From contig OX597826.1 in the NCBI GenBank assembly GCA_951406725.2, forward strand, positions 1,302,001 through 1,366,000: a stretch of 64,000 nucleotides of DNA. Reading direction: 5' to 3'. The position numbers were made by a program. Shown piece after piece: positions 26,560 to 32,500 of this stretch. Source of the DNA: Octopus vulgaris. Its lineage: Eukaryota. Position 1 is the stretch's first letter; every line of letters starts with the position of its first letter.

Positions 26560-29500
26560 CTTTTCTGTTATAGGCACAAGGCCTGAAATTTGGGGGGAAG
26601 GGGCTTGATTATATCAACTTTAGAGCTTTACTGAATTTATTTTCTTGACCCAGGAAGGGTGAAAGTTAAAGCTGATTCCAGTGGAATTTAAAAATAGAAC
26701 GTAAAGACGGACAAAATGCTGCCAAGCTTTTTGTCCAGTATGCTAATGATTCAGCCTGTTCACCACCTGAATAATAATAATAATAATAATTCTTTCTAAT
26801 TTTGACACAAGGAAAGCAGTTTTGAGGGTAGGGGGCTAGTGAATTATACTGACTCCGATACTTTATTTTATTATTTTTGAAAGAATGAAAAGTAAAGCTG
26901 GCCTTAGTAGGATTTGAACTCACAACATAAAGGGCCAGCTCACTGTTTTTAATAGTTCAAAATTTTGCTAGAAGACCAGCAATTTCAGTGGGAAGGGTTA
27001 TTTGATAACACTGACCCTAGTACTTGACTGGTACTTGATTTTATCAACCCCCACTAAATGATGAAAGATAAAATTTGCCTTGGTGGTATTTGAACTCAGA
27101 ACGCCAAGTGCTGGAAGAAATAATGCGAGGCATTGTTCTGACACTCTAATGACTTTGCCAATCTATCAACCTAAAGCTAATAATAATTGTTTCTGACATA
27201 GGCACAAGACCTAAAATTTGAAGGGAAGGGGGTTAGCCAATCATATCAACTCCAGGGAGCTGAACAGAGTGTGTTAAGTGACTTAACCCTTTTGATACCA
27301 GCCCGGCTGAAACTGGTTCTGACTCTATAGTACAAATGTCTTATTTTCATAAGTCCTGAATTAAAATCTTCCACCAAACCTTAGTCACAATTTATGTTCC
27401 TAACAACTAGCTTAATGATAACTAAGTTATTTTATTAAATTCTTTTTTATATTTAAAATAATTGAAAGAAACACAGAGCAGCTCAAAATAAATACGGTAG
27501 TGAAAGGGTTAACTGAATACCACAAAATATTTTGTCTTTTGATCAATACTCCCAACCCACCACAAACACCTTTGTCAATAGTACTGATACTATTACTTAT
27601 TGGCTGACAACCCCGTCATATTTTGTGAGGAAGGGGCTAGGCATTTGGATTGAAGCATTCTGAATTAAGCCAAATATTATGGGCAAGTAACAAAGACAAA
27701 ATAAACTGAAGACCAAAACATTTTCAAAAAGAAAATAGATGCAAAGATCATATTTGAGTGTTGAGTGGATAGCAACCTACCTTATCTGGTTGTGAAACTG
27801 GTAAGAAGGACATTTTGTTGTCAATCCAATTCTCTTGTCTCGTAGTGCCTGCTTCACCAACACCGGGTACAACACAAATCCTGCTGCCTTCAGGACCATA
27901 TCCACTAACACCTGGAGCATAGCCACCAGGAATTTGTACACTGGCGCCAGGACCAAAGGTCCTGCCTTCAGAAGCAATTCTGTTGTCAGTTGCATACAGT
28001 CTGCTGTCGGGCCTGTGTATTTTACCGTTTGGACCATAGAATCTACCGTCAGGACCAAAGTATGCACTGTCAGGACTATATAGTTCACCATCGGGACCAT
28101 ACACCCTGCCATCTGGACTGTATACATGTCCGTCTGGGCCATAACCTTTACCATCTGGACCATACAATCCACCGTCGGGGCCATACACTTTGCCCTCTGG
28201 ACCATATATAGAGCCACCAGGGCCATGACCTTTGCCATCAGGGGAATAAAATCTTTCGTCAGGACTATACAAGGTGCCATTGGGACCATACATTTTGCCA
28301 TCAGGACTGTACAGTCGATTATCAGGACCAAATATCTTGCCATCAGGACCGAATAGTCTGCCGTCAGGACCATAAACTTGAGCATCAGGGCTGTATGGCT
28401 TACCATTAGGACCATACACCCTACCATCTGGAGTATAAACACTGTTGTGGGGACCATACCCTTTGCCATCAGGACCATGCAATTTACCGCCAGGGCCATA
28501 CACCTGACCTCCTGGACCATACACTTTGCCGTCGGGACCATAATTTCTTCCACTTGGACAACACACAACACCATCAGGGCCATAACCTTTGCTAGGAGAG
28601 GAATAAAATCTTTTGTCTGGACTGTACAGTTTACCATTGGGTCCCACCATTTTGCCATCAGGAGTGAACTCCCTACCACCAGGACCAAATACTTTGCCAT
28701 CTGGACCATAGAATCTACCATCAGGACCATAGTATCTACTGTCAGGACTGTATAATTCTTTGTCAGGACCATAAACCCTGCCATCTGGACCATAGACATG
28801 TCCTTTGGGACCATATCCCTTGCCGTCAGGGCCATGTGGTTTGCCATCAGGACCATATATTCTACCATCAGGAGCAAATATTTTGCCATCAGGGCCATGA
28901 CCTTTGCCATCAGGAGCATAAAATCGTTTGTCTGGTTCGTACAGTTGTCCATTTGGACCATACAATCTGCCGTCAGGACTGTACGCTTCACCATTCGGAC
29001 CATAGCCTTTGCCATGAGGCTCTGGAAGTCCAAAACCTTTCCCTTCTGGAGCTTTGTATCCTTTTCCTTCTGGAAGCCCACACACTCTGCCATCAGGAGA
29101 GTACAGTCGATTATCAGGGCCACATATCTGGCCATTGGGACCAAATAGTCTGCCATCAGGGCTGAAAACTTGACTATCTTGACTGTATGGCTTACCATTA
29201 GGACCATACACCCTACCATCTGGGGTATAAACACTGTTGTTGGGGCCATAACCTTTGCCATCACGGCCATGCAGTTTACCGTCAGGGCCATACGTCAAGC
29301 CATCTGGGCCATATACCTTGCCGTCAGGACCATAATTTCTACCACTTGGACAACACACGACACCATCGGGACCATACCCTTTGCCGTCAGGGTGATAAAA
29401 TCTTTTGTCTGGACTGTATAGCCTATCATTGGGTCCCACCAGCTTGCCATCAGGTGTGAACAGTCTGCCTCCAGGACCAAATACTTTGCCATCTGGACCA

Positions 29501-32500
29501 TAGAATCTACCATCAGGACCATAGTATCTACTGTCAGGAGTGTATAATTCTCCGTCAGGACCATAAACCCTGCCGTCTGGACCATAGACATGTCCTTTGG
29601 GGCCATATCCTTTGCCATCAGGGCCATATGATTTGCCATCAGGACCATACATTCTACCATCAGGAGCATATATTTTGCCACCAGGGCCATAACCTTTGCC
29701 ATCAGGAGCATAAAATCGTTTGTCTGGTTCGTACAGTTGTCCATTTGGACCATACAATCTGCCGTCAGGACTGTACGCTTCACCATTCGGACCATAGCCT
29801 TTGCCTTGGGGAGGTTCTGGAAGGCCATACCCATTTCCTTCGGGAAGTGCAAAACCTTCTGTTCCTGGAGTCCCACATACACCACCATCTGGATTGTACA
29901 GTTTATCATCAGGACCATATATCTTGCCGTCGGGACCAAATAGTCTGCCGTCAGGACTAAAAACTTGAGCATCAGGGCTGTATGGTTTACCATTGGGACC
30001 ATACACTCTACCATCCGGGCTATAAACACTGTTGTGGGGACCATACCCTTTACCATCACGGCCATGCAATTTACCGTCAGGGCCATACACCTGGCTATTT
30101 GGACTACACACCTTGCCGTCAGGACCATAGTTTCTGCTGTCTGGACACCATACAGTGCCTTCAGGGCCATGCCCTTTGCCATCAGAGTCATAAAATCTAG
30201 TGTCTGGACTGTATAATCCACCATTGGGTCCCACCACTTTGCCATCAGGAGTGAACTCCCTACCACCAGGACCGAATACTTTCCCGTCTGGACCATAGAA
30301 TCTACCATCAGGACCATAGTATCTACTGTCAGGACTGTATAATTCTCTGTCGGGACCATAAACCCTGCCGTCTGGACCGTACACCTGTCCTCTGGGACCA
30401 TATCCCTTGCCGTCAGGGCCATGTGGTTTGTTATCAGGACCATATATTCTACCATCAGGAGCAAATATTTTGCGACCAGGGCCATAACCTTTGCCATCAG
30501 GAGCATAAAATCTTCTGTCTGGTTCGTACAGTTGTCCATTTGGACCAAACAATCTGCCGTCAGGACTGTATGCCACACCATTCGGACCATAGCCTTTATC
30601 GAGAGGAGCTTCTGGAAGGCCGTAACCTTTTCCTTCTGGACACTTGCATGCATCGGTCAAGGGCACAGCACTGGGATAGAGTTCTCCATTGACACTAGGC
30701 TAGAAAAGAAAATACAAAATATACAATTGTAGTATAATTTGTAAAATGAATTACAAAATACTTTTTTATAAATTCAGTTTAAAACAAATGGTGAAGAAGG
30801 AAAACGAGAGAGCAAAAGAGTAAATGCAGAATACGTATTCAGTGAACCAGAAACATCAGTGTCAACTATCAGATGAATTCATAAAAGAATACCTCCTTTT
30901 ACTGGTTCTAATCAATATCAGAAAAGTGTATTAAAAAAAAAAAAAAAGATAAGGAAGACAAAGTGATTGATGAATTCAGGTTTGACTGACGACCAATGTT
31001 AACAACAAAGACACAATAATATATACAGAACAAATTCAACATCGGTACAGAAACGGTACAAGATTTAAACGCTGCATAAATATGGAAATAAATACATTGG
31101 GAATTTCAAATGTTCTTTTTTTTTATTAATGTATTTACATTTGTTAATGTTAATTAATTACACACACATAATGTAATTTTATGTGTGTGTGTGTGTGATA
31201 ATTCTGGTATGGCTTTATCTGGCTGAGTGCATTACATTGTATTACCAGCACCAGAGTGATTGTCTACTATGGCTAAAGTATCCCTCTGCACTGTGTCAGC
31301 TTATATTTAGACTTACTGTTTTTCCAGCTGGATGCAAGTGGAATGGTTCATGCCTCACCACAACACTACTTGAGGGTAAGGTGTTCGCAGTGCAGAAATG
31401 TGAGGAAAGACATGTGCTGAGGGATTTGTTTTTGGTTGGATGGTTTTAGATACAAATTTTTCAAAATATCTCTAAGCAGATGGTGATTTGGGAGCCTGAA
31501 TTAATATTCAGGATGAAACTCTTGTTTGGCCAGTATTTTAATTGTATCTATTTATAAATATAATTAATTACATTACCATATGGTTTTTGAGCCAAACGCT
31601 ATATCTTTGGGTACCTTTAATATTTTTACCCAAACATAATTCTCTATAATCTAGTATTTAAAAATCAAACATTTGGTAACAGAAACACTAAACCTGAAAA
31701 GAGAAAGTGTTGTTAGATGTGAAAGAAGAATTGTCTGTTTCAGAAAATGATTGCTTCAAAAAGAAAAGAAAAAAGAAATACCCCCCCCCTCTCAATAAGC
31801 AAGAAAACATCGTTATCAGATTGGTACCATTTGATCTTGAGAAAATAACTCAAAAGGTATTGGTTGATGTGAAGCACTGGTACAAGGTGCAACATGGTTG
31901 CACATCAAACCTAATCACACAGCCGTGCCTGCAGCTATATCCTGACACCTTTTTTTTTCAGACACTGTATCCTCGACTACATTATGATCCCATGCACCTT
32001 TTCTTTCTTTTTCTTTTCAAAGATGACAGAATGTGATTTAAGAAACTCAGCCACAATTTCCAGCACAACAAGAGACCTAAAAGCTCCCCGTTATAGCAGT
32101 AGAAAGTGTTCTACGCATGAAACAAAAATATGCAATAATTACACTTGGGGCCCTTCAGAATCATATTAGTGACCCTAATTTTAAAATAGAGGTTAAAATG
32201 AAAAATTCAGTATGTAAGAGAAACAACATTAGAAAAAACTTGAAAATGCTGGATTTTATTTATTTTAAAGTTCTTTATCTAGTGATCTGTTTTCACAATT
32301 TGATGCAATTCAAGTGCCATAGAGTCAATAGACATCTATGTAGTATAGCTAAAACATGAATAATGTTATATATATATATATATAAAGATCCTATTTGTAA
32401 ATGTTTTTTTTTGAGACAAACATTTTCAGATCAGTTGTGTTTGTGTGTACATGAAGATTATATATAAAGACACAATGTAATGTTTTCTAATATTCTATCA

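What the first reader, a model, noticed from the sequence alone, without database searches (positions are those of the whole stretch)
27781..30699. A 'giant' protein 4.1/coracle isoform: a 2.9-kb skippable exon encoding a 973-aa YGPDG heptad-repeat domain between the FA region and the CTD
Seen: the long minus-strand ORF is not a standalone gene. It has a strong acceptor 11 codons upstream in frame and a gtaggt donor, is exactly 973 codons, and is phase 0-0 like both neighbouring 4.1 exons. Including it would take the in-window protein from about 556 to 1,529 aa, and skipping it preserves the frame. About 117 heptads [YFH]-[GS]-P-[DN]-G-[KR]-x stay in register with no stops or frameshifts despite substantial divergence between heptads, which argues for selection on the protein. 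Established: 4.1 proteins link membrane proteins (via FERM) to the cortical cytoskeleton; vertebrate 4.1 has a spectrin-actin-binding domain at this position, which Drosophila Coracle lacks; giant single-exon insertions create the neuronal giant ankyrins. Inference: this lineage may have evolved its own giant membrane-skeleton adaptor, in which a repeat rod or spring separates the FERM and CTD binding ends (axon, septate-junction, muscle or chromatophore use). I do not know of such a domain in any 4.1 protein.
Basis: partly seen in the sequence, partly recalled or inferred. Interest (0 to 1): 0.9.

Follow-up and report, generated by a model that had tools for sequence, protein, structure and literature searches.

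The report
Heptad-repeat giant exon in octopus 4.1
A 2.9-kb exon inside an octopus protein 4.1 (coracle-like) gene encodes about 119 copies of a seven-residue Tyr-Gly-Pro-Asp-Gly-Lys/Arg-x unit; it arose by amplification inside an older short exon and would add about 103 kDa to this membrane-skeleton linker.

Summary
Window 30699..27781 (minus strand) is an open frame of exactly 973 codons. An in-frame tag that is also the acceptor AG bounds it upstream, and an AAG|gtaggt donor bounds it downstream. It lies between the FA exon and the CTD exons of a protein 4.1 gene, and every neighbouring exon I mapped except the FA/A junction is phase 0-0.

It encodes 119 heptads, consensus Y-G-P-D-G-[KR]-[VLIF], arranged as three ~265-aa super-repeats plus a partial fourth. 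The super-repeats differ mostly at synonymous sites (dN/dS 0.26-0.37 in this frame, about 1 in the shifted frames), so the frame is under protein-level selection.

Two database proteins tie it to 4.1 mRNA. The Octopus sinensis RefSeq model XP_036355969.1 joins four upstream 4.1 exons directly to the exon's first 36 codons. A 760-aa full-length 4.1 from a related animal carries a short, repeat-free counterpart of the exon's tail, followed by the next window exon.

So this is a lineage-specific repeat expansion of an ancestral 4.1 exon, not a new insertion. Skipping, tissue use and function remain untested. No protein among about 15 billion contains the array. Long, poorly conserved 4.1 middle regions are already known (Drosophila Coracle, 1698 aa). 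An insect coracle-like protein has an analogous GKDG heptad array.

The parts
27781..30699 (-). Exon R: 2919-nt, 973-codon, phase 0-0 coding exon of the protein 4.1 gene (the finding)
   Evidence: dN/dS; acceptor used in XP_036355969.1
30700..30722 (-). Polypyrimidine tract plus AG acceptor of exon R (16 of 20 pyrimidines at -3..-22). The final 'tag' is also the in-frame upstream stop
27775..27780 (-). Donor gtaggt of exon R
30592..30699 (-). Non-heptad lead of exon R (residues 1-36, PSVNGELYP...PEGKGYGLPEAPLDKG); 35 of 36 identical to the Octopus sinensis model P0081
29878..30591 (-). Super-repeat 1 (34 heptads, exon residues 37-274)
29083..29796 (-). Super-repeat 2 (34 heptads, residues 302-539), preceded by a Cys/PEGNG linker
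28291..29004 (-). Super-repeat 3 (34 heptads, residues 566-803), preceded by a Cys/PEGKG linker
27976..28290 (-). Partial fourth super-repeat (15 heptads, residues 804-908), in register with super-repeat 3
27781..27933 (-). Conserved non-repeat tail (IPGGYAPGV...ENWIDNKMSFLPVSQPDK); 24 of 55 identical to residues 590-644 of the related 4.1 protein P0183
63835..64000 (-). FERM-adjacent (FA) exon of 4.1, cut by the window end; it ends in phase 1
62370..62605 (-). 4.1 exon A (VNRDRIAS...SSPD); 79 of 79 identical to P0081
58776..59012 (-). 4.1 exon B (SIKTADY...DRLDKM, Lys/Glu-rich), phase 0-0
55681..55743 (-). 4.1 exon C (21 codons), phase 0-0
54122..54187 (-). 4.1 exon D (22 codons, ...EVAAEKEK), phase 0-0; joined directly to exon R in P0081
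51553..51666 (-). Candidate 4.1 exon X1 (38 codons, GKEKGRLGLFGKF...), ag/gt-bounded, phase 0-0; no transcript or protein evidence seen
34945..35097 (-). 4.1 exon X2 (51 codons, Ser-rich and acidic), phase 0-0; absent from P0081 and P0183; its Ser run resembles one in insect P0020
20751..20915 (-). 4.1 exon Y (55 codons, TTRAGFGSK...KKPPPVPPKY...), phase 0-0; it follows the exon-R tail counterpart in P0183
18233..18442 (-). 4.1 CTD exon 1 (70 codons), phase 0-0
10260..10349 (-). 4.1 CTD exon 2 (30 codons)
9377..9478 (-). 4.1 CTD exon 3 (33 codons plus stop)

Best explanation
Exon R is a translated internal exon of an octopus protein 4.1 (EPB41/coracle-type) gene. An ancestral short exon carried a Gly/Pro/Tyr-rich stretch and a conserved ...WIDNKMSF.PV..P[DE]K tail. 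In the octopus lineage it was enlarged in two steps. First, a 21-nt unit encoding Y-G-P-D-G-[KR]-[VLIF] was amplified. Later, a ~795-nt block of 34 heptads plus a Cys/PEGKG linker was copied three and a half times. Because the exon and its neighbours are phase 0-0, including it inserts a ~103-kDa, near-neutral, Gly/Pro/Tyr-rich, probably non-globular segment between the membrane-binding FERM-FA end and the CTD end of 4.1.

The most likely role (inferred, not shown) is a long, compliant spacer or tether. It would change the reach and mechanics of the 4.1 link, and it may also act as a multivalent Tyr/Lys-Arg interaction surface.

Shown: the exon anatomy, its position inside the gene, selection on the frame, use of the acceptor in a RefSeq model, and homology of the tail to a 4.1 mRNA-derived protein.
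Inferred: alternative inclusion, disorder, and the spacer function.

The confidence of 0.6 is for the whole statement. By step: translated 4.1 exon about 0.9; lineage-specific expansion of an ancestral exon about 0.75; alternative inclusion about 0.5; compliant-spacer role about 0.35.
For: - Anatomy and splice sites.
- FA and 4_1_CTD Pfam hits on the same strand on either side.
- All mapped exons from B onward are phase 0-0.
- Selection: dN/dS between super-repeats is 0.26, 0.37 and 0.30 (Fisher p 2e-10 to 4e-5) in frame 0, against 0.83-1.52 (not significant) in the two shifted frames. Differences are in excess at third positions: 51, 38 and 36 of 102, 83 and 76. Conserved positions use mixed synonymous codons, for example Pro3 as CCT 59, CCA 29, CCC 19, CCG 4.
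- There is no Met before residue 350, so it is not a self-starting ORF.
- P0081 = XP_036355969.1 (Octopus sinensis) joins exons A-B-C-D to exon R residues 1-36.
- P0183 and its near-identical cluster mate P0184 carry FERM_N/M/C, FA and 4_1_CTD. They contain a 55-aa counterpart of the exon-R tail (24 of 55 identical, E 1e-10) followed by the counterpart of exon Y, with no heptad array.
- All 59 of 59 matches to the degenerate unit TAYGGNCCNGAYGG (<=1 mismatch) lie at 27887-30591 on the minus strand, against 0.22 expected. Self-blastn links exon R to nothing else in the window.
- Non-globular indicators: G 22%, P 14%, Y 10%. Mean hydropathy is 0.385, below the charge-hydropathy boundary of 0.415 (the formula is recalled). 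AlphaFold2 gave mean pLDDT 39 and pTM 0.21 for one super-repeat.
Against: - I could see no RNA-seq or cDNA from the window's own species.
- P0081 is a computed model on a 43-kb scaffold. It leaves the exon-R frame twice and ends 30 residues later, so it supports only the acceptor and the first 36 codons.
- No protein containing the bulk of the array was found among 1.84 billion cluster representatives or in the word-indexed searches of lengths 535-4865 aa. Existing annotations therefore either omit it or are not in those collections.
- P0183 comes from an unnamed transcript contig of unknown species. Its short exon could in principle reflect an internal splice site rather than a short gene. 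My crude scan found 0 in-frame internal AGs with >=14 of 20 upstream pyrimidines among 185 AGs in the octopus exon.
- The low pLDDT may only reflect a 3-row alignment.
- The strict regularity of the heptad argues for a defined structure rather than pure disorder. So does its recurrence in an unrelated moth protein (73 in-register [YHIV]-[GTS]-P-D-G-K-[LV] heptads).
Confidence: 0.6

Rival explanations
1. The exon is constitutive rather than a skippable cassette. Every CTD-containing octopus 4.1 protein would carry the array, and 'giant' would be the normal form.
For: The only two transcript-like records seen both include the exon or its counterpart (P0081, and P0183 with its near-identical mate P0184). 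The tail motif WIDNKMSF.PV is conserved between species, which suggests it is needed. No skipping record was found.
Against: Central 4.1/Coracle exons are typically alternative: Coracle has several cDNA isoforms (PMC2132682, passages). P0081 and P0183 themselves skip X2, and P0183 skips CTD exon 1. All neighbours are phase 0-0, so skipping would cost nothing in frame.
Confidence: 0.3
2. The array folds into a regular structure, such as a stack of short strands joined by G-P-D-G turns (a solenoid or beta-roll-like rod, possibly binding cations through Asp4). It would then be a rigid rod of fixed length rather than a disordered spring.
For: - The pattern is very regular: positions 7 and 1 are hydrophobic or aromatic (V/L/I/F 81 of 119; Y/F/H 109 of 119), followed by G-P-D-G.
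- Each heptad position within a super-repeat keeps its own identity across copies, with dN/dS about 0.3.
- The same heptad consensus recurs in a Spodoptera protein, and a GKDG variant occurs in an insect coracle-like protein.
- The AlphaFold2 model places 2-3-residue strands every seven residues.
Against: The model's confidence is too low to use (pLDDT 39). No solved structure with such a heptad was found: the PDB sequence search returned only RNA polymerase II CTD repeats, designed propellers and NHL repeats. Composition falls on the disordered side of the charge-hydropathy boundary.
Confidence: 0.25
3. The array is mainly a multivalent docking or condensate-forming platform. It would be a CTD-like tyrosine heptad array read by kinases or binding modules, or Tyr/Arg-Lys stickers with Gly spacers, rather than a mechanical element.
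For: The best PDB sequence matches are the RPB1 C-terminal heptad repeats (E 3.5e-30, query 1-214 against chain residues 1755-1964). Tyr1 is present in 84 of 119 heptads, Ser2 in 22 of 119, Pro3 in 111 of 119 and K/R6 in 84 of 119.
Against: The match is driven by periodicity and summed over repeats. Positions 4-7 (D-G-K/R-hydrophobic) do not match the CTD consensus, which I recall as YSPTSPS. No binding partner or modification data exist. The sticker-spacer grammar is recalled knowledge, not tested here.
Confidence: 0.15
4. It is not a coding part of 4.1. It would be an intronic minisatellite that happens to be open, or a separate nested gene.
For: A repeat whose unit lacks stops stays open by itself; sense frame +1 has only 2 stops. 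No annotated protein contains the array. Pfam finds no real domain.
Against: - dN/dS is 0.26-0.37 only in frame 0.
- The splice sites sit exactly at the ends of the open frame and are in phase with all neighbours.
- The RefSeq model enters the exon through its acceptor.
- The tail is homologous to a FERM-FA-CTD protein and is followed there by the next exon's counterpart.
- There is no Met in the first 349 residues.
- There are no copies elsewhere in the window.
Confidence: 0.04

Closest known systems
Drosophila Coracle long isoform (1698 aa)
   Same: It is an invertebrate protein 4.1 with a conserved N-terminal FERM region (residues 1-383) and a conserved C-terminal region (1585-1698). About 1200 poorly conserved residues lie between them, and several cDNA isoforms exist (PMC2132682, passages read). 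The concept is the same: a large optional middle between the two binding ends.
   Different: I did not retrieve the Coracle sequence, so I cannot say from a tool result whether its middle contains heptads. No Drosophila protein appeared among the 150 listed hits or the stored proteins. The octopus segment is a single exon built from 119 near-regular heptads.
Apolygus lucorum KAF6197634.1 (P0020), a partial coracle-like protein with a 4_1_CTD
   Same: It carries about 29 in-register heptads, [LV]-G-K-D-G-[QKR]-[LS], in the region upstream of the CTD. The x-G-x-D-G-polar-hydrophobic template is shared.
   Different: It has Lys instead of Pro at position 3 and Leu/Val instead of Tyr at position 1. 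Its array lies upstream of the Ser-rich stretch, whereas the octopus array lies downstream of the Ser-rich exon X2. Independent origin is therefore more likely. The similarity is weak (32% identity, E 1.9e-22, summed over repeats).
Spodoptera exigua KAH9631519.1 (P0001) and related lepidopteran proteins
   Same: It has 73 in-register heptads, [YHIV]-[GTS]-P-D-G-K-[LV], practically the octopus consensus. It was the best hit of the word-indexed search: 50% identity over 58% of the query.
   Different: No FERM, FA or CTD was found; the only Pfam hit is the same spurious Proteasome_A_N match. Its relative P0003 is listed with PF11901. The protein context is different, so this is likely convergence.
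Giant ankyrins (440/480-kDa ankyrin-B and ankyrin-G)
   Same: They are membrane-skeleton adaptors made giant by inclusion of one very large exon between conserved modules (PMC6765234 and PMC7401806: search listing and abstracts only).
   Different: They belong to a different protein family, are vertebrate, and show neuron-specific inclusion. The giant-exon sequence is not a short tandem heptad array, but that last point is recalled, not tested.
RNA polymerase II RPB1 C-terminal heptad domain
   Same: It is a tandem heptad array with Tyr at position 1 and Pro at position 3. It gave the top PDB sequence matches (E 3.5e-30).
   Different: Positions 4-7 differ, the protein is nuclear, and there is no evidence of common descent. 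The score is a sum over periodic matches.
AHNAK central repeats
   Same: AHNAK is a giant, largely single-exon scaffold protein with heptad periodicity in its repeats (recalled; the held text of PMC2119538 did not contain the passage). A frog AHNAK was hit at E 1.1e-39 in 16 stretches.
   Different: Identity is 32% and the match is periodicity-driven. AHNAK has 128-aa units and a different motif (both recalled).

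Membership tests
Protein 4.1 / coracle (EPB41) gene, as host of the exon | FERM-adjacent (FA) region | tested here: met
   Pfam FA: E 4.9e-13, 49.3 bits (cut-off 30.6), on window:63737-64000:-
Protein 4.1 / coracle (EPB41) gene, as host of the exon | 4.1 C-terminal domain (CTD) | tested here: met
   Pfam 4_1_CTD at 26.2 bits (cut-off 25) on 18221-18463 and 19.8 bits (below cut-off) on 10131-10481. Window CTD exons are 83-86% identical to the P0183 CTD
Protein 4.1 / coracle (EPB41) gene, as host of the exon | N-terminal FERM domain | not testable with these tools
   It lies upstream of the FA exon, beyond window position 64000. The related protein P0183 has FERM_N, FERM_M and FERM_C
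Protein 4.1 / coracle (EPB41) gene, as host of the exon | The exon is spliced into 4.1 mRNA | tested here: inconclusive
   RefSeq model XP_036355969.1 joins exons A-D to exon R residues 1-36 and then leaves the frame. P0183 carries the tail counterpart followed by the exon Y counterpart. No reads from the window's species were available
[quoted passage not shown] | SAB domain between FA and CTD | tested here: not met
   No SAB family appeared among the Pfam hits of exon R, of the 10 minus-strand ORFs scanned, or of P0183. Invertebrate 4.1 proteins are reported to lack it (PMC3791450, abstract in the search listing)
Giant-exon isoforms of membrane-skeleton adaptors (giant ankyrin type) | One very large exon inserted in frame between conserved modules | tested here: met
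   2919-nt phase 0-0 exon between FA and CTD
Giant-exon isoforms of membrane-skeleton adaptors (giant ankyrin type) | Regulated (tissue-specific) inclusion | not testable with these tools
   No expression data were reachable
RNA polymerase II CTD-type heptads | Consensus Y-S-P-T-S-P-S (recalled) | tested here: not met
   Y1 in 84 of 119, S2 in 22 of 119 and P3 in 111 of 119 heptads, but positions 4-7 are D, G, K/R and hydrophobic
Collagen (the name NCBI gives the mayfly hits P0002 and P0009) | Gly every third residue | tested here: not met
   The period is 7: Gly at heptad positions 2 and 5 only, and a 21-nt DNA period
PD40 / WD40-like beta-propeller (bacterial hits named YncE-like) | Blades of about 40 residues recognised by propeller profiles | tested here: not met
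   No propeller family appeared among the Pfam hits at E <= 1. The bacterial hits space their motif about 40-47 residues apart, against 7 here
Dispersed repeat / transposon | Copies elsewhere | tested here: not met
   0 of 59 unit matches lie outside 27887-30591, and no self-blastn links leave the exon. Only this 64-kb window could be examined

The most novel reading that the evidence does not exclude
The heptad hydrophobic-Y-G-P-D-G-K is an unrecognised structural repeat class, a defined turn-stacked nanospring or rod. It has arisen independently in octopus protein 4.1, as a GKDG variant in an insect coracle, and in lepidopteran proteins. In octopus it would create a cephalopod-specific giant 4.1 whose regulated inclusion tunes the mechanics of the membrane skeleton in specialised cells such as neurons, muscle or chromatophore-associated cells.
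Probability: 0.15. Interest if true: 0.8.

Novelty: new variant of a known kind. Interest (0 to 1): 0.5.

Why it matters
Protein 4.1 links membrane proteins to the cortical cytoskeleton, and the length and mechanics of the segment between its two binding ends are poorly understood. This exon shows a clean, datable route from a short ancestral exon to a ~103-kDa tandem heptad array under purifying selection. It gives a cephalopod lineage a 4.1 form about 973 residues longer than any annotated one I could find.

It also exposes an annotation gap. The array is missing from every protein set searched, and the one model that touches it is mislabelled 'glutamic acid-rich protein-like'.

Finally, it points to a recurrent x-G-[PK]-D-G-x-hydrophobic heptad whose structure is unknown. 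If inclusion is tissue-regulated, it would parallel giant ankyrins and long Coracle.

Tried and rejected
- **Pfam on the exon.** Proteasome_A_N, DUF4440, GBD_IRG7_N and DUF6998 score only by summing 15-20-residue matches to the S/G-P-D-G-R motif. I rejected them as artefacts.
- **Word-indexed protein searches.** Lengths 535-1703 gave nothing relevant. Lengths 1704-4865 gave only insect and bacterial repeat proteins and no 4.1.
- **ESM Atlas.** No usable hit.
- **AlphaFold2 of one super-repeat with a 3-row alignment.** pLDDT was 39, so I ran no fold search because it would be meaningless.
- **PDB sequence search.** Periodicity matches only.
- **Internal in-frame acceptor that could yield a short isoform.** None passed a crude pyrimidine filter. 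This is not a trained splice-site model.
- **N-terminal homology of exon R to P0183.** PSVNGELYPSAV against PEYNGEVYPGGI gives 6 of 12 identical, E 0.09. This is suggestive only and I did not rely on it.
- **Literature.**
  - 'YGPDG' anywhere in text: 10 papers, none about 4.1 or a heptad domain.
  - 'octopus' + 'band 4.1': 3 papers; the one I opened no longer holds the term.
  - cephalopod/squid + 4.1 terms: nothing relevant among the 12 listed of 3,437.
  - On these searches alone, I found no description of this domain in print.
- **Collections not used or closed.** Orthologous cephalopod loci therefore stayed unchecked.
- **Paper supplements.** These were closed. None of my claims depends on them.

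Full report
**1. The observation**

Translating window:27781-30699 on the minus strand gives 973 codons with no stop. The upstream boundary reads ttttcttttctag|CCT. The acceptor AG ends at 30700, and the three bases 'tag' are at once the end of the intron and the in-frame stop that closes the frame upstream. The downstream boundary is AAG|gtaggt at 27781/27780, and the frame would otherwise run ten more codons to a TGA. The window has no N.

The mechanical ORF list shows the same frame from a GTG at 30666, eleven codons inside the exon. None of 2000 mononucleotide shuffles was stop-free. That control is weak for a tandem repeat, because the sense +1 frame has only 2 stops in 2.9 kb. The other four frames have 12-110 stops.

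**2. Anatomy of the repeat**

Tandem Repeats Finder reports a 21-nt period with 59-88% matches, plus higher-order periods. At the protein level there are 119 heptads in three in-register runs of 35, 35 and 49 (exon residues 37-281, 302-546 and 566-908).

Column counts over the 119 heptads:

| Position | Main residues |
|---|---|
| 1 | Y 84, F 16, H 9 |
| 2 | G 74, S 22 |
| 3 | P 111 |
| 4 | D 82, N 17 |
| 5 | G 88 |
| 6 | K 42, R 42 |
| 7 | V 32, L 27, I 11, F 11 |

The heptads are not interchangeable. A block of 34 position-specific heptads, preceded by a ~27-residue Cys/P-E-G-K-G linker, recurs with periods of 265 and 264 residues. This gives three super-repeats and a partial fourth of 15 heptads. 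Because 265 and 264 are not multiples of seven, the heptad register shifts at the two linkers. There is no DNA frameshift.

The exon's first 36 and last 65 residues are not heptads. The segment would weigh 102.9 kDa, with pI 6.4 and K+R 111 against D+E 116.

**3. Is the frame selected?**

The three super-repeats are 86-89% identical in DNA and 82-87% in protein. Nei-Gojobori dN/dS is 0.26, 0.37 and 0.30, with Fisher p from 2e-10 to 4e-5. The same alignments read in the two shifted frames give 0.83-1.52, none significant. The three pairs are not independent.

Third codon positions carry 51 of 102, 38 of 83 and 36 of 76 differences. Conserved heptad positions use mixed synonymous codons. Since the super-repeat duplications, the sequence has therefore evolved as protein in the stated frame.

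**4. The host gene**

On the same strand, Pfam finds:
- FA at 63737-64000 (E 4.9e-13);
- 4_1_CTD at 18221-18463 (26.2 bits, cut-off 25);
- 4_1_CTD at 10131-10481 (19.8 bits, below cut-off).

Using two database proteins as guides (tblastn) and reading the splice sites, I mapped these exons:

| Exon | Window coordinates | Note |
|---|---|---|
| FA | ..64000-63835 | ends in phase 1 |
| A | 62605-62370 | |
| B | 59012-58776 | |
| C | 55743-55681 | |
| D | 54187-54122 | |
| X1 | 51666-51553 | candidate only |
| X2 | 35097-34945 | Ser-rich |
| R | 30699-27781 | the finding |
| Y | 20915-20751 | |
| CTD1 | 18442-18233 | |
| CTD2 | 10349-10260 | |
| CTD3 | 9478-9380 | followed by the stop |

From B onward every exon is phase 0-0 and a multiple of three, so any combination keeps the frame. 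The FERM domain lies beyond the window end.

Exons were searched one at a time, and the joined-model search was left out.

**5. Evidence that exon R belongs to 4.1 mRNA**

The exhaustive HMMER search of 1.84 billion cluster representatives gave 714 hits at E <= 0.001. Of the 150 listed, one had high identity: P0081, 95% over query residues 1-37.

P0081 is RefSeq XP_036355969.1, 'glutamic acid-rich protein-like' [Octopus sinensis], 270 aa, on a 42,965-bp contig. Mapped to the window, its identity to each exon is:
- A: 79 of 79
- B: 78 of 79
- C: 20 of 21
- D: 22 of 22
- first 36 codons of exon R: 35 of 36

After that it continues in two other frames of the repeat and stops. The window therefore comes from O. 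sinensis or a very close relative. An NCBI model uses the exon-R acceptor, but its partner is exon D (54122), skipping X1 and X2. The model is truncated and defective inside the repeat, so it supports the acceptor only.

Searching with P0081 for longer proteins gave one hit, P0183 (760 aa, from an unnamed transcript contig). A second contig encodes a protein differing at 2 of 760 residues. Pfam shows FERM_N, FERM_M, FERM_C, FA and 4_1_CTD in it. Against the window it aligns as follows:

| Window exon | Identity / P0183 residues |
|---|---|
| FA | 84% |
| A | 55% |
| B | 52% |
| tail of exon R (27933-27781) | residues 590-644; 24 of 55, pairwise E 1e-10; ...EQWIDNKMSFMPVIKPEK against ...ENWIDNKMSFLPVSQPDK |
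| Y (20918-20748) | residues 644-702; 46% |
| CTD2 | 83% |
| CTD3 | 86% |

P0183 has no heptad array. Where the array would be, it has about 40 Gly/Pro/Tyr-rich residues.

The simplest reading is that an ancestral short exon was expanded in the octopus lineage. A weak match of the exon's first 12 residues to P0183 607-618 (6 of 12, E 0.09) agrees with this but is not evidence on its own. A crude scan found no in-frame internal acceptor in the octopus exon (0 of 185 AGs passed), so a short octopus isoform made by internal splicing is not indicated.

**6. What argues against an independent or non-coding element**

- There is no Met before residue 350.
- The open frame begins exactly at the acceptor.
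- All 59 matches to the degenerate unit lie inside 27887-30591 on the minus strand, against 0.22 expected.
- Self-blastn finds interspersed repeats in the introns, but none linked to exon R.

**7. Relatives of the repeat**

No protein in the collections contains the bulk of this array. The collections may simply lack an adequate annotation of this locus.

The best hits are repeat proteins from other contexts:
- A Spodoptera exigua hypothetical protein (KAH9631519.1) with 73 in-register heptads [YHIV]-[GTS]-P-D-G-K-[LV].
- Mayfly 'collagen-like' proteins with GPGGQIYGPDGRP units.
- A sea-urchin protein of 6382 aa.
- A frog AHNAK.
- Bacterial propeller proteins.

Only 3 of the 183 proteins stored at that point matched the 4.1 protein P0183: P0183 itself, P0081 and P0020. 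P0020 is KAF6197634.1 from the mirid bug Apolygus lucorum. It is a partial protein ending in a 4_1_CTD (E 4.7e-15), and it carries about 29 heptads [LV]-G-K-D-G-[QKR]-[LS]. Its array lies upstream of a Ser-rich stretch that resembles octopus exon X2, whereas the octopus array lies downstream of X2. The two arrays are therefore probably independent.

The PDB sequence search returned the RPB1 C-terminal heptads as best matches (E 3.5e-30). That likeness is one of periodicity (Tyr1, Pro3).

**8. Structure and mechanism**

AlphaFold2 on super-repeat 2, with the three super-repeats as its alignment, gave mean pLDDT 39 and pTM 0.21. This is too low for a fold search and uninformative given the shallow alignment. 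Composition (G 22%, P 14%, Y 10%, D 9%) and the charge-hydropathy position (0.385 against a boundary of 0.415, formula recalled) lean toward a non-globular chain.

The strict hydrophobic-aromatic-G-P-D-G pattern, and its recurrence in unrelated proteins, keep a regular turn-stack in play. I commit to a long compliant spacer between the FERM-FA and CTD ends as the most likely role, at about 0.35. A rigid repeat rod (0.25) and a multivalent docking or condensate platform (0.15) are the rivals.

My confidence in the separate steps:
- Exon R is a translated 4.1 exon: about 0.9.
- It arose by lineage-specific expansion of an ancestral exon: about 0.75.
- It is alternatively included: about 0.5.

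**9. Comparison with what is known**

Drosophila Coracle is 1698 aa, with conserved ends (1-383 and 1585-1698), a long non-conserved middle and several cDNA isoforms (PMC2132682, passages read). Invertebrate 4.1 proteins are reported to lack the SAB domain (PMC3791450, abstract in the listing). Giant ankyrins arise from one giant exon (PMC6765234 and PMC7401806, listing and abstracts).

The octopus exon is thus a new variant of a known theme. What is new is the 119-unit heptad array, its clear two-level amplification history, and its absence from annotation. I found no description in print. Supplements were closed and could not be checked.

**10. Limits**

Orthologous cephalopod loci and expression therefore stayed unchecked.
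- The species of P0183 is unknown, and I did not try to trace it.

Noticed in passing
window 290-3900: About 3.6 kb of TA/CA-type microsatellite (GC 9-14%), open in several frames as Tyr/Ile runs.
   Followed up: no
window 2-283, minus strand: A GC-rich 94-codon open frame at the window edge, downstream of the 4.1 stop, with no Pfam hit. It may be an exon of the neighbouring gene.
   Followed up: partly
window 8100-8799, 38800-39099, 58200-58399, 60000-60299 and others: Interspersed repeat copies in the 4.1 introns (up to 14 self-matches per 100-bp bin). Their translations recur as ...LSSNSAKVDFAFHPF.VDK... None matches exon R.
   Followed up: partly
window 34945-35097, minus strand (exon X2): The Ser-rich acidic exon (SSSSSSSSSDSSDDEGEG...) resembles the 'SSSSSSSSDSSDGEGG' stretch of the Apolygus coracle-like protein P0020. 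This suggests an old 4.1 exon that both P0081 and P0183 skip.
   Followed up: partly
window 30500-30596, minus strand, against P0081 residues 239-270: The Octopus sinensis RefSeq model leaves the exon-R frame twice within about 100 nt and terminates. It is named 'glutamic acid-rich protein-like' and sits on a 43-kb scaffold. This is probably an assembly or model defect in the repeat and a mis-annotated 4.1 fragment.
   Followed up: partly
P0001 (Spodoptera exigua KAH9631519.1) residues ~1163-1675: It has 73 in-register heptads with nearly the same consensus as the octopus exon, in a protein without 4.1 domains. The same heptad recurs in an unrelated context.
   Followed up: partly
window 27781-30699, sense frame +1: A second frame of the exon has only 2 stops in 2.9 kb, giving mechanical ORFs of 452 and 504 aa rich in Met/Val. 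dN/dS there is about 1, so it is a by-product of the repeat.
   Followed up: yes
window 18233-18442 (CTD exon 1) against P0183: The related full-length 4.1 protein lacks the counterpart of CTD exon 1 and goes from the exon Y counterpart straight to CTD exon 2. The first CTD exon is therefore itself optional in that species.
   Followed up: no
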